A stretch of DNA of 64,000 nt from an uncultured Actinomycetes bacterium (GTDB taxonomy: Bacteria; Actinomycetota; Thermoleophilia; RBG-16-64-13), in contig CAWFCN010000001.1 of assembly GCA_963814415.1 (NCBI GenBank), forward strand, positions 683,231-747,230. Reading direction: 5' to 3'. Below, piece by piece: positions 55,625-56,035 of the stretch. A program made the position numbers and the translations under genes. Below the pieces are notes generated by a model, which saw only the letters and a list, made by a program, of their open reading frames with translations, ran no database searches and had not been told where the DNA came from. The first letter of the stretch is position 1; each line of letters begins with the position of its first letter.

Positions 55625-56035
55625 GTGCCCAAGAAGAGCATCATATTGACCGCGGTGATTGCCGCTGTCTTGGCCCTGGCGTTCACCATCCCCGTCTTTG
55701 CGACGGGTTGCGATGGCGACACCGCCGCCTACAACAACCGCGTGGCCGGACAGATGATGGACCGCGGCGGCAACGCCGACTGCCAGGGCAACGGCACGAT
55801 GTGCCAGAACCGAGGCAACAACGCTGACCGCGGCGGCAACTGCGCGGGTGGCGGCGGCAACTGCGCGGGTGGCGGCGGCAACTGCGCGGGTGGCGGCGCT
55901 GACTGCGCGGGCGGCAACTGCGCGGGTGGCGGCACTTGCGACGGCGCTAACTGCACCGGCGCGGGTGCGGGTGACTGCGACGGTACCTGCGATGGCGACT
56001 GCGCGACCACGAGCGATGAGGTCCTCTGCTTCTAG
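55625..56035 (+). CDS. secreted Cys/Gly-rich tandem-repeat lipoprotein (metallothionein-like)
   Basis: GTG start with AGGGAG SD. Signal peptide KKSIILTAVIAAVLALAFTIPVFATGC. The mature part has about 15 Cys in GGGGNCA heptad repeats and CDG motifs. Confidence 0.55.
   Translation: MPKKSIILTAVIAAVLALAFTIPVFATGCDGDTAAYNNRVAGQMMDRGGNADCQGNGTMCQNRGNNADRGGNCAGGGGNCAGGGGNCAGGGADCAGGNCAGGGTCDGANCTGAGAGDCDGTCDGDCATTSDEVLCF
55831..55940 (+). repeat. 21-bp tandem repeat (3 perfect plus about 2 degenerate copies) inside the Cys-rich gene
   Basis: cggcggcaactgcgcgggtgg x3, then degenerate units. Encodes the GGGGNCA repeats. Confidence 0.8.

What the first reader, a model, noticed from the sequence alone, without database searches (positions are those of the whole stretch)
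55625..56035. Secreted Cys/Gly-rich heptad-repeat lipoprotein (GGGGNCA x about 5) just upstream of the hgcAB cluster
The mature part of about 108 aa has about 15 cysteines in regularly spaced G4-N-C-A repeats and C-D-G motifs, with no hydrophobic core. It is metallothionein-like and may sequester thiophilic metal (Hg, Cd, Zn, Cu). It is encoded by a perfect 21-bp tandem DNA repeat, so copy number is likely hypervariable. It is divergent from a PadR regulator.
Basis: seen in the sequence. Interest (0 to 1): 0.65.

Follow-up and report, generated by a model that had tools for sequence, protein, structure and literature searches.

The report
Orphan secreted cysteine-rich repeat lipoprotein
This is a real gene for a small exported, probably membrane-anchored protein made of short cysteine/glycine repeats, the founder of a tiny unknown family in uncultured Actinomycetota; it lies near the mercury-methylation genes hgcAB but is transcribed separately, and nothing shows that it is a metallothionein.

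Summary
Window 55625-56035(+) is a 136-aa ORF with a ribosome-binding site, a Sec signal peptide, a lipobox (Cys29), 14 Cys and 32 Gly. It contains a 69-bp perfectly periodic 21-bp repeat of 3.3 copies, about 5 counting degenerate copies.

- **Real gene:** about 14 homologues exist among roughly 15 billion proteins. All keep the frame, the signal peptide and a C-terminal ...CF end, while the central repeats differ in unit, number and length.
- **No known relatives:** there is no Pfam, NCBIfam or PDB match. AlphaFold gives pLDDT 38.
- **Own transcription unit:** a promoter-like element and a terminator hairpin travel with the gene wherever related genomes carry it.
- **Variable setting:** the gene lies in a variable stretch together with a HAAS-PadR envelope-signalling pair, Zn-ribbon membrane proteins and hgcAB. 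It occurs without hgcAB (L088, L089), and hgcAB occurs without it (L091/L092 and 80 other hgcA loci).
- **Metallothionein-like reading not supported:** there are no CxC, CC or CxxC motifs, the protein is exported and acidic, and no metal regulator is nearby. Cys-count parity across the family points to paired cysteines.

My best reading, held with modest confidence, is an envelope-anchored, cysteine-stapled, acidic repeat protein. A thiol-based metal sponge remains a live rival. Interest is moderate.

The parts
55625..56035 (+). CDS of the 136-aa Cys/Gly-rich pre-protein (GTG start, TAG stop)
   Evidence: ORF and translation. GC by codon position is 0.61/0.62/0.85. The ORF is intact in about 14 homologues. 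Pairwise dN/dS is 0.27-0.75, and all lengths are multiples of 3.
55613..55619 (+). Ribosome-binding site AAGGGAG, 5 nt before the GTG
   Evidence: Read from the sequence. Conserved as (A/G)AGGGAG in the four loci aligned in A2.
55526..55557 (+). Promoter-like element that travels with the gene (TTTACA ... TAAGCT; the 20-nt spacing is atypical)
   Evidence: TTTACACTTTCC...TAnnnT is conserved in the window and L001-L003, in L085, which has no PadR, and in L090. It is absent from the PadR-ZnR intergenic region of L092, which lacks the gene. The consensus scan did not call it, so its function is inferred.
55625..55711 (+). Sec signal peptide (aa 1-28; KK n-region and hydrophobic core) ending in the lipobox A-T-G-C (Cys29, codon 55709-55711)
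   Evidence: Mean hydropathy of aa 5-26 is 2.48. PROSITE-like and G+LPP lipobox patterns are met in 4 of 4 close homologues. The Cys is kept in 12 of 14 family members. Lipoproteins elsewhere in the window use the same box style.
55712..55813 (+). Conserved N-terminal mature segment (DGDTAAYNNRVAGQMMDRGGNADCQGNGTMCQNR)
   Evidence: Conserved in alignments A1 and A3. AlphaFold gives a weak helix at aa 30-49, at low confidence.
55814..55933 (+). Hypervariable Cys-containing repeat array; the perfectly periodic 21-bp tract is 55830-55898 (3.3 copies, encoding GGNCAGG units)
   Evidence: TRF result and the exact periodicity test. Relatives have different units, numbers and lengths.
55937..56032 (+). 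Conserved C-terminal segment (CDGANCTGAGAGDCDGTCDGDCATTSDEVLCF) with CX3C units and a terminal -CF
   Evidence: dN/dS falls as low as 0.03-0.16 against the closest relatives. The -CF end is present in 10 of 14 members.
56069..56105 (+). Intrinsic-terminator hairpin GAAGACCGGCGGAGCGCTCCGCCGGTCTTC followed by a T-rich tail
   Evidence: The fold of 56036-56110 gives -38.8 kcal/mol, z = -5.0. The core stem (AAGACCGGCGGAGC...TCCGCCGGTCTT) is invariant in the four loci of A2. L085 has the same stem. L090 has a variant of the stem followed by a canonical TTTTCTTTTTT tail. The consensus scanner missed it because the window's T-run is interrupted.
55061..55444 (-). Neighbour: PadR-type regulator, divergently transcribed (probable start at M11 of the longest ORF)
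   Evidence: Pfam PF03551, E = 8.6e-21. Relatives were called at 125-127 aa. A GGAGGAG motif lies before the internal ATG.
55460..55481 (.). Neighbour: palindrome TAGTACT-N7-TAGTACTA, a probable PadR operator overlapping the -10 of the PadR promoter (55473-55500, - strand)
   Evidence: It is the only exact site in the 64 kb; the search with up to 3 mismatches returned this site on both strands plus an overlapping weaker one, against 0.11 matches expected. It overlaps the predicted promoter. It is invariant in A2, and a variant stays with PadR in L092, where the Cys gene is absent.
54022..55068 (-). Neighbour: HAAS + 'putative sensor' multi-TM protein, which forms a two-gene unit with PadR
   Evidence: Pfam PF13796, E = 1.4e-30, and a weak HAAS match. 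The HAAS-PadR dyad is described in PMC11237479.
56223..57840 (+). Neighbours: Zn-ribbon membrane proteins ZnR1 (56223-57410) and the truncated paralogue ZnR2 (57346-57840)
   Evidence: Weak RanBP-type Zn-ribbon matches and alignment A4. Homologues sit next to the Cys gene in L001, L085, L087 and L088, and next to hgcA in L001, L085 and L092.
57922..59461 (+). Context only: hgcA (57922-59148) and hgcB (59156-59461); a separate transcription unit
   Evidence: NCBIfam HgcA_corrinoid at 414 bits (cut-off 275) and HgcB_ferredoxin at 119 bits (cut-off 99). The NVWCAAGK cap-helix motif is present.

Best explanation
**Shown.** A real, separately transcribed gene encodes a 136-aa pre-protein. It has a Sec signal peptide with a lipobox (Cys29), a short conserved segment, and a hypervariable run of short Gly/Asn/Asp repeats that each carry one Cys. 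It ends in a conserved CX3C-rich tail finishing in ...CF. It founds an orphan family of about 14 sequences confined to an uncultured Actinomycetota clade. The gene behaves as a promoter-gene-terminator cassette, placed differently in related genomes within a variable stretch that also holds a HAAS-PadR signalling pair, Zn-ribbon membrane proteins and hgcAB.

**Inferred.**
- After export the protein is lipid-anchored on the outer face of the cytoplasmic membrane (about 0.65).
- Because it has no hydrophobic core, its cysteines must organise its shape. The strongly non-random parity of the Cys count across the family suggests they are mostly paired as disulfides (about 0.5).
- That would give a compact, acidic, Gly-rich knot or rod whose Asp/Asn/Cys-lined loops could hold cations at the cell surface.
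- The central repeats grow and shrink in frame by slippage, so relatives differ in length and Cys number.

The gene is neither part of the hgcAB transcription unit nor required together with hgcAB.
For: - **Coding and export:**
- **Family with conserved ends and a variable centre:**
- **No known family or fold:**
- **Local lipobox style:** AAAC, AVAC, AASC, LFSC, TTGC, VSGC and QAGC, each followed by a G/S/D linker, in seven other lipoproteins of the window.
- **Cys parity:** the total Cys count in the mature protein is even in 11 of 12 lipobox-bearing members, over a range of 8-16 (naive binomial P = 0.003). Parity survives loss (P0005) or doubling (P0007, L090) of the C-terminal Cys. It also survives the Cys53-to-Gly change in L001, which comes with one fewer repeat Cys. 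Paired incorporation of Cys is the accepted sign of disulfides in exported proteins, and exported proteins of all 31 aerobic Actinobacteria analysed showed an even-Cys bias (PMC2823432).
- **Acidity:** net charge is -9 to -21, Asp+Asn is 10-26%, and there is no His.
- **Cassette behaviour:** the gene carries its own promoter element and terminator in every setting.
- **Fast evolution:** the neighbouring Pat protein is 85-93% identical where the Cys protein is 36-42% identical.
- **Organism:** the best named IlvD hits, at 78-80% identity, are Actinomycetia, Actinobacteria and Thermoleophilia MAGs.
Against: - The parity argument and the lipid anchor pull against each other. If Cys29 carries the lipid, the remaining count is odd in 11 of 12 members, leaving one Cys unpaired.
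- The sequences are related, so the binomial P overstates significance. Repeat units holding two Cys, as in L085, preserve parity automatically.
- An hgcAB carrier is probably a strict anaerobe. In the published survey, only 1 of 3 anaerobic Actinobacteria showed the even-Cys bias. No Dsb, VKOR or MdbA gene was seen, but only about 64 kb plus flanks was available.
- Purifying selection is weak (dN/dS 0.27-0.75, and 0.5-0.9 in the repeats), so part of the protein may be a nearly unconstrained spacer.
- There is no expression, lipidation, redox or binding data of any kind.
- AlphaFold's pLDDT of 38 is uninformative.
Confidence: 0.4

Rival explanations
1. One reading: a metallothionein-like surface thiol sponge. 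The cysteines stay reduced in the anoxic habitat and chelate thiophilic metals (Hg, Cd, Zn, Cu) at the outer face of the membrane. This would buffer or detoxify them, or capture Hg(II) ahead of uptake and methylation by HgcAB.
For: - Cys makes up 12-13% of a core-less mature polypeptide, about 40-fold denser than in other lipoproteins of the window.
- AlphaFold sees no fold, as expected for an apo metal-cluster protein, although the alignment has only four sequences.
- The host carries hgcAB and is therefore probably anaerobic.
- The gene lies within 0.1-2 kb upstream of hgcA in 4 of 6 informative settings: the window, L001, L085 and L090. In L090 it is directly adjacent.
- Membrane thiols are thought to control Hg(II) retention and uptake in methylators, and their carriers are unknown (PMC12915048).
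Against: - No metallothionein homology.
- No CxC, CC or CxxC motif in the window protein. Cys residues are separated by 3-12 residues within the repeat and tail region.
- The composition is acidic and Asn/Asp-rich, unlike metallothioneins.
- Thiolate clusters do not explain the Cys-count parity.
- The adjacent regulator belongs to an envelope-signalling HAAS-PadR dyad, not a MerR, ArsR or CsoR metal sensor. No metal transporter or resistance gene lies within the roughly 30 kb of the window that was annotated.
- A terminator separates the gene from the downstream genes.
- The family occurs without hgcAB (L088, L089), hgcAB occurs without it (L091/L092), and the family is absent from 80 other hgcA loci and from GTDB representative genomes.
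Confidence: 0.3
2. A size-variable surface coat or decoy lipoprotein. The conserved signal peptide and ends serve only export and anchoring. The repeat region is a rapidly diversifying exposed surface, possibly evading phage or predators or acting as a spacer, and has no specific ligand.
For: - Conserved ends flank a centre that differs in unit, number and length between close relatives.
- Protein identity is 36-42% where the neighbouring Pat protein is 85-93% identical.
- dN/dS in the repeats is 0.5-0.9.
- The perfect 69-bp tract indicates a recent expansion.
Against: - Cys is retained in every repeat type of every member, and its parity is kept. This implies a constraint on the cysteines, not free drift.
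- dN/dS never exceeds 1.
- There is only one copy per locus, with no multigene family or switching machinery of the kind typical of variable lipoprotein systems.
Confidence: 0.15
3. A precursor of a ribosomally made, modified peptide or bacteriocin, such as a Gly/Cys-rich core resembling microcin B17-type azole peptides, or a disulfide-rich Sec-dependent bacteriocin with the neighbouring membrane proteins providing immunity.
For: The Gly/Cys-rich low-complexity core superficially resembles linear azole peptide precursors (my own recollection of the microcin B17 sequence; not tested). Small membrane proteins are often adjacent: ZnR, and the 335-aa and 342-aa TM proteins.
Against: - The N-terminus is a classical Sec/lipoprotein signal, not a leader peptide.
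- No YcaO/cyclodehydratase, radical-SAM, lanthipeptide synthetase or ABC-peptidase gene lies within the stretch of the window that was annotated (about 33-64 kb), nor in L085, L088, L089 or L090.
Confidence: 0.04
4. Not a functional gene: a chance ORF in GC-rich repeat DNA, or the real gene is one of the overlapping antisense ORFs.
For: Long antisense ORFs overlap it: 55556-56128(-) at 190 aa and 55729-56010(-) at 93 aa. Selection is weak. There is no expression evidence.
Against: - The ribosome-binding site, signal peptide, lipobox, terminator orientation and the GC3 value of 0.85 all fit the + frame.
- The frame is kept in about 14 homologues down to 32-36% identity, with all indels in multiples of 3.
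- dN/dS is below 1 in every pair.
Confidence: 0.03

Closest known systems
Metallothioneins (bacterial SmtA/BmtA and mycobacterial MymT; named from my own knowledge)
   Same: Small and Cys-rich, with almost no aromatic or hydrophobic residues, and no fold predicted for the apo form.
   Different: No sequence match. No CxC, CC or CxxC motifs. The protein is exported behind a signal peptide or lipobox rather than cytoplasmic. It is acidic and Asn/Asp/Gly-rich. The Cys count keeps its parity.
Thrombospondin type-3 (and bacterial TSP3-like) calcium-binding repeats (structure recalled from the literature; a lead, not a test)
   Same: An extracellular Asp/Asn/Gly/Cys-rich repeat without a hydrophobic core, held together by disulfides and bound cations. 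Distant members (P0005, P0007, L090) carry D-x-D-G-I-C-D-like strings.
   Different: No Pfam TSP_3 or other hit, even at E <= 10. The window protein has no DxDxDG motif, and its repeats are GGGGNCA and CDGxC units.
Size-variable tandem-repeat surface lipoproteins (for example Mycoplasma Vlp/Vsa; from my own knowledge)
   Same: A conserved lipoprotein signal peptide followed by in-frame tandem repeats whose number and length change between close relatives.
   Different: No homology. It is a single-copy gene, not a switching multigene family. The repeats here are Cys-based, and within-population variation is untested.
Small cysteine-rich envelope lipoprotein of Chlamydia (OmcA/CrpA; from my own knowledge)
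   Same: A small lipoprotein with many cysteines that cross-link in the envelope.
   Different: No sequence similarity was detected by any search. The host is monoderm-type Actinomycetota. The repeat architecture is absent from OmcA.
Known hgcAB-linked accessory genes (the ArsR-like regulator directly upstream of hgcAB)
   Same: Lies upstream of hgcA in several genomes of one clade.
   Different: The documented neighbour is a cytoplasmic regulator, reported in 112 genomes (PMC7438021) and in Desulfovibrionaceae (bioRxiv 10.1101/2022.10.17.512643). This gene is an exported protein, is terminated before hgcA, and is restricted to one Actinomycetota clade.

Membership tests
Metallothionein | Sequence membership in a metallothionein family | tested here: not met
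   No Pfam or NCBIfam hit at E <= 0.01-10. No PDB sequence or profile hit.
Metallothionein | Cysteines arranged as C-x-C, C-C or C-x-x-C clusters | tested here: not met
   The window protein has 0 CxC, 0 CC and 0 CxxC; it has only two CX3C.
Metallothionein | Small, Cys-rich, few aromatic residues | tested here: met
   The mature part is 108 aa with 13% Cys, 2 aromatic residues and no His.
Metallothionein | Cytoplasmic location | tested here: not met
   N-terminal Sec/lipoprotein signal peptide.
Metallothionein | Binds several metal ions in thiolate clusters | not testable with these tools
   Needs the purified protein with ICP-MS or ESI-MS.
Bacterial lipoprotein (Lgt/Lsp substrate) | Signal peptide with a charged n-region and a hydrophobic h-region | tested here: met
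   K3 and K4, and mean hydropathy of aa 5-26 = 2.48.
Bacterial lipoprotein (Lgt/Lsp substrate) | Lipobox ending in an invariant Cys | tested here: met
   The PROSITE PS51257-like and G+LPP patterns match in the window and L001-L003, with Cys29. The -3 residue is Ala, which fails the strict [LVI] rule. Seven other lipoproteins of the window use similarly relaxed boxes.
Bacterial lipoprotein (Lgt/Lsp substrate) | The +1 Cys conserved across homologues | tested here: inconclusive
   Present in 12 of 14 members. P0006 and P0012 have VFA|TA and VFA|AT without a Cys. An SPase I site (V-F-A) overlaps the box.
Bacterial lipoprotein (Lgt/Lsp substrate) | Actual diacylglyceryl modification | not testable with these tools
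   Needs globomycin treatment, lipid labelling or Triton X-114 partitioning.
TSP type-3 / bacterial TSP3 calcium-binding repeat | Profile match or a DxDxDGxxDxxD motif | tested here: not met
   No Pfam hit at E <= 10 for ten family members. The motif is absent from the window protein.
hgcAB operon / obligate accessory gene | Co-transcription with hgcAB | tested here: not met
   A terminator hairpin follows the gene in the window, L001-L003, L085 and L090. In the window, two other genes lie in between. This is predicted, not measured.
hgcAB operon / obligate accessory gene | Co-occurrence with hgcAB | tested here: not met
   With hgcAB in the window, L001, L085 and L090. Without it in L088 and L089. 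hgcAB without the gene in L091/L092 and in 80 other hgcA loci.
Linear azole / RiPP precursor | Leader peptide plus an adjacent maturase (YcaO, rSAM and the like) | tested here: not met
   The N-terminus is a Sec signal, and no such Pfam domains occur in any of the neighbourhoods.
HAAS-PadR regulon target | PadR operator in the gene's own promoter | tested here: inconclusive
   The only palindrome (55460-55481) overlaps the PadR promoter and lies 45 bp upstream of the gene's promoter-like element. It stays with PadR when the gene is absent (L092). The gene keeps its promoter element where PadR is absent (L085). Binding is untested.

The most novel reading that the evidence does not exclude
The protein is a lipid-anchored, thiol-dense Hg(II) or soft-metal receptor on the outer face of the membrane of an uncultured Actinomycetota methylator. 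It would belong to a clade-specific accessory set that also includes Zn-ribbon membrane proteins and sits in the variable stretch upstream of hgcAB. It would capture Hg(II) at the cell surface and control how much reaches HgcAB. That would make it the first named protein carrier of the 'membrane thiols' that govern mercury uptake.
Probability: 0.08. Interest if true: 0.8.

Novelty: new variant of a known kind. Interest (0 to 1): 0.4.

Why it matters
Which molecules carry the envelope thiols that retain and deliver Hg(II) in methylating bacteria is an open question (PMC12915048). Beyond an ArsR-like regulator, no conserved hgcAB accessory genes are known.

A thiol-dense surface protein sitting upstream of hgcAB in several genomes of one clade is therefore a reasonable candidate to test, even though the comparative evidence here weakens the link.

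Separately, it is a clean example of an orphan family with no hydrophobic core, built from in-frame Cys-bearing tandem repeats. Cys number changes freely across the family while its parity is kept. That makes it a small natural experiment on how disulfide or metal pairing constrains repeat expansion. If neither idea holds, it is one more lineage-specific envelope protein of unknown function.

Tried and rejected
- **Family and structure searches.** Pfam, NCBIfam and PDB sequence and profile searches gave nothing significant. The weak OATP, TrAA12 and GRP hits are compositional.
- **AlphaFold2 on the four-sequence alignment.** pLDDT was 38, so no fold search was justified.
- **AlphaFold2 on the Zn-ribbon neighbour.** The single-sequence run gave pLDDT 46 and was unusable.
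- **Genome and metagenome scans.** A GTDB representative-genome scan with the family motifs found no relative. The metagenome scan gave one spurious antisense match, L004. A plasmid tblastn found nothing.
- **Rfam.** A scan of 55350-56300 found no RNA family.
- **The upstream ATG start.** This is the start used in the public gene call P0001. I rejected it because a TAA interrupts it in L001.
- **An RiPP or azole-peptide precursor.** Rejected for lack of a leader peptide and maturases.
- **PadR control of the gene.** This could not be supported, because the operator belongs to PadR's own promoter.
- **An 11-nt inverted repeat bracketing the promoter element** (55518-55528 and 55569-55579). It is not conserved in the relatives by eye in A2, so I dropped it.
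- **Literature.** Searches for hgcA + PadR and hgcAB + metallothionein found nothing relevant.
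Full report
**What is in the sequence**

Window 55625-56035(+) is an ORF of 136 codons that starts with GTG. An AAGGGAG ribosome-binding motif lies 5 nt upstream.

The product begins MPKKSIILTAVIAAVLALAFTIPVFATGC. This is a charged n-region, then a 22-residue hydrophobic core (mean hydropathy 2.48), then a lipobox ending in Cys29. The remaining 107 residues contain 13 more Cys and are dominated by Gly, Asn, Asp and Ala. They have no His and no hydrophobic stretch.

Five G(2-4)-[N/D]-C-A units are present; two are exact GGGGNCA, and one (GGGADCA) was counted by eye. They are encoded by a 21-bp array. Positions 55830-55898 are perfectly periodic (69 bp, 3.3 copies), and the degenerate array runs to 55933.

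Cys makes up 10.3% of the protein against a median of 1.1% for 53 ORFs of the window. Seven other predicted lipoproteins in the same 64 kb have only 0-3 Cys after their lipobox.

**Is it a gene?**

Codon-position GC is 0.61/0.62/0.85, which fits the + frame.

A word-indexed search of 5.8 billion protein clusters found only the gene itself (P0001) and three relatives at 57-76% identity. An exhaustive profile search of 1.84 billion cluster representatives, standing for about 15 billion proteins, added six more distant members. A profile word search added several more, and one further copy was found in locus L090. That gives about 14 sequences, each seen on one or two contigs.

- All keep the reading frame, and all length differences among the four close ones are multiples of three. 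Pairwise dN/dS is 0.27-0.75, falling as low as 0.03-0.16 in the C-terminal segment between the closest pairs.
- The upstream ATG used by a public gene call is interrupted by TAA in L001, so the GTG is the true start.
- The overlapping antisense ORFs have no such support.

**Family anatomy**

All members share four parts:
- a signal peptide ending in PVFA[ST]GC[GD]DD;
- a short segment of the type AAYxxRxAQxMxDR;
- a central Cys/Gly/Asp/Asn region that cannot be aligned between distant members and is often built of CDGxC (CX3C) units;
- an acidic C-terminus, ending ...CF in most members (PFG[DS]EPICF in five, DEVLCF-type in the four closest).

Each lineage has its own repeat. The window has 21 bp x 3.3, L085 has a 36-bp unit x 2.6, and L001 has no 21-bp array. 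The neighbouring Pat protein is 85-93% identical in genomes where this protein is only 36-42% identical. It is therefore a fast-evolving protein with conserved ends.

Nothing matches it in Pfam, NCBIfam or the PDB, by sequence or by profile, nor in plasmid records. AlphaFold2 gives pLDDT 38 outside the signal peptide.

**Organism**

The best named relatives of the window's IlvD, at 78-80% identity, are MAGs labelled Actinomycetia, Actinobacteria and Thermoleophilia. HgcA has no relative above 55% identity among GTDB species representatives.

The gene content also fits this placement: PF13796 'sensor', VanW/PG_binding_4, PGA_cap and many relaxed lipoboxes. I take the host to be an uncultured, probably anaerobic Actinomycetota. 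The anaerobic lifestyle is inferred from hgcAB only.

**Transcription unit and surroundings**

A strong hairpin at 56069-56098, followed by a T-rich tail, comes after the stop codon. The fold of 56036-56110 gives -38.8 kcal/mol, z = -5. The core stem is invariant in the four aligned loci. L085 has the same stem, and L090 has a variant of the stem followed by a canonical T-run immediately before hgcA.

A promoter-like element, TTTACACTTTCC...TAnnnT, also travels with the gene. It is present in L085, where PadR is missing, and absent from L092, where the gene is missing. The gene therefore behaves as a self-contained cassette. Promoter and terminator function are predicted, not measured.

The upstream divergent unit is a PadR regulator plus a HAAS/'sensor' multi-TM protein. 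This dyad has been proposed to work as an alternative two-component system that responds to membrane signals (PMC11237479).

The only exact operator-like palindrome in the window, TAGTACT-N7-TAGTACTA at 55460-55481, overlaps the -10 of the PadR promoter. A variant stays with PadR when the Cys gene is absent. Autoregulation is therefore likely, while control of the Cys gene remains open.

No metal-sensing regulator, metal transporter or resistance gene lies in the roughly 30 kb of the window that was annotated, apart from hgcAB.

**Link to hgcAB**

hgcA (57922-59148) and hgcB (59156-59461) are confirmed. Related contigs show one syntenic region with a variable middle. In the table, > and < mark the direction of transcription.

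| Locus | Gene order |
|---|---|
| window | Pat> <SnoaL <Sensor <PadR >Cys >ZnR1 >ZnR2 >hgcA >hgcB <MazF |
| L001 | <PadR >Cys >ZnR >hgcA |
| L002, L003 | <PadR >Cys (contig ends) |
| L090 | Pat> <Sensor <PadR >Cys >hgcA >hgcB |
| L085 | Pat> >342-aa TM >Cys >ZnR >hgcA >hgcB |
| L088 | Pat> >ZnR >Cys >335-aa TM <MazF; no hgcAB within 10 kb |
| L091/L092 | Pat> <Sensor <PadR >ZnR >hgcA; no Cys gene |
| L087 | ZnR> Cys> |
| L089 | <Sensor <PadR ... Fic, toxin-antitoxin, HD >Cys (no lipobox Cys) >methyltransferase; no hgcAB |

None of 80 hgcA loci from other lineages has a homologue of this protein or of the Zn-ribbon protein.

So the gene is often upstream of hgcA in this clade, in 4 of 6 informative cases. 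The whole region is syntenic by descent, however. Each gene also occurs without the other, and a terminator separates them. The published hgcAB neighbour is an ArsR-like regulator, and neighbourhoods are otherwise not conserved.

**How it most likely works**

- **Export** is well supported.
- **Lipid anchoring** is likely, at about 0.65. The lipobox patterns match. The box and its G/D-rich linker resemble those of seven other lipoproteins in the window. Against this, two distant members lack the Cys, and an SPase I site overlaps the box.
- **Cysteine organisation.** With no hydrophobic core, the cysteines must organise the molecule, either as disulfides or as metal-thiolate clusters. The one quantitative clue is parity. 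The number of Cys in the mature protein is even in 11 of 12 lipobox-bearing members, although it ranges from 8 to 16. It stays even when the C-terminal Cys is lost (P0005) or doubled (P0007, L090). It also stays even in L001, where Cys53 has become Gly and there is one fewer repeat Cys (naive P = 0.003).
- **What parity means.** Paired incorporation of Cys is the accepted signature of disulfide formation in exported proteins, and aerobic Actinobacteria show it universally (PMC2823432). Thiolate clusters predict no parity.
- **Metallothionein hallmarks.** CxC, CC and CxxC motifs are absent, and the protein is acidic and Asn/Asp-rich.

I therefore favour a cysteine-stapled, acidic, envelope-anchored repeat protein, possibly cation-binding. 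It resembles the core-less, disulfide- and calcium-organised thrombospondin type-3 repeats, a comparison I recall from the literature and did not test.

The caveats are real:
- If Cys29 is lipidated, the remaining count is odd.
- The sequences are not independent.
- Some repeat units carry two Cys.
- The host is probably anaerobic.

My confidence in this reading is 0.4. The metallothionein-like thiol sponge stays at about 0.3.

**Comparison with known families, and novelty**

The protein is not a member of any described family. It shares composition with metallothioneins but fails their motif, location and homology criteria. It shares the logic of size-variable repeat lipoproteins and of small Cys-rich envelope lipoproteins, without homology to either.

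I rate it a new variant of a known kind: an orphan family of exported Cys-repeat proteins.

It would matter most if it proved to be a carrier of the membrane thiols that govern Hg(II) uptake in methylators. I give that about 0.08.

**Verdict**

Interest is moderate, at 0.4.

Noticed in passing
window 54022-55500 (- strand genes) and palindrome 55460-55481: A HAAS-PadR two-gene envelope-signalling unit, made of PadR plus a HAAS/PF13796 multi-TM 'sensor'. A unique TAGTACT-N7-TAGTACTA palindrome overlaps the -10 of its own promoter. The same unit, with 79-98% identical PadR, recurs in L001-L003 and L089-L093.
   Followed up: partly
window 56223-57410 and 57346-57840; L001 918-1814; L085 10498-11472; L087 5-715; L088 8889-9611; L092 4633-5649: A clade-specific family of membrane proteins. 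Each has an N-terminal RanBP-type Zn-ribbon (the long form has a second Cys4 motif and an extra TM) and a helical extracytoplasmic C-domain that usually ends in ...DYC. It sits next to the Cys gene, next to hgcA, or both. The second window copy is truncated after its TM. The family is absent from 80 other hgcA loci. Single-sequence AlphaFold was uninformative.
   Followed up: partly
window 57922-58090; also L005, L006, L014, L018, L021, L022, L027, L029, L041, L077, L083 (N-termini of hgcA): HgcA here carries a Cys-rich N-terminal tail (PC..CAC..SC..CAC) ahead of the conserved domain. Many HgcA proteins from other phyla have CCPP- or CCG-type Cys-rich N-terminal tails of variable length.
   Followed up: no
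L008 630-834, L033 5659-5893, L076 5642-5861: An unrelated ORF of about 70 aa with 8-9 Cys (PF.T.PGLKGKV.VP...C..C..C..C) lies just upstream of hgcA in three Desulfobacterales-type or deltaproteobacterial MAG loci.
   Followed up: no
window 59466-60127 (-); L088 11674-12278: A MazF/PemK toxin-antitoxin pair abuts hgcB. In L088 the same MazF (67% identical) follows a 335-aa TM protein and hgcAB is missing. This marks a boundary of hgcAB gain or loss in the clade.
   Followed up: partly
L085 8853-9881 and L088 10699-11706: A multi-TM protein of 335-342 aa with no Pfam match (31% identity between the two copies) lies next to the Cys gene in two genomes, upstream in one and downstream in the other.
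   Followed up: partly
L072 2422-2722: A 100-aa ORF with at least 16 Cys (stretches of the CCESKFCCECEFC type) lies about 1 kb upstream of hgcA in a Bacillota MAG. It is unrelated to the family studied here.
   Followed up: no
window 14354-30469 and 47751-49055: Seven predicted lipoproteins have relaxed lipoboxes (AAAC, AVAC, AASC, LFSC, TTGC, VSGC, QAGC), each followed by a Gly/Ser/Asp-rich linker. Their mature parts are Cys-poor, with 0-3 Cys.
   Followed up: partly
L088 4712-8732: The CoA-ligase and Pat genes of this contig are each split into two ORFs although 93% identical to the window's. These are probably frameshift errors of a long-read assembly, so small ORFs on that contig should be read with care.
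   Followed up: no
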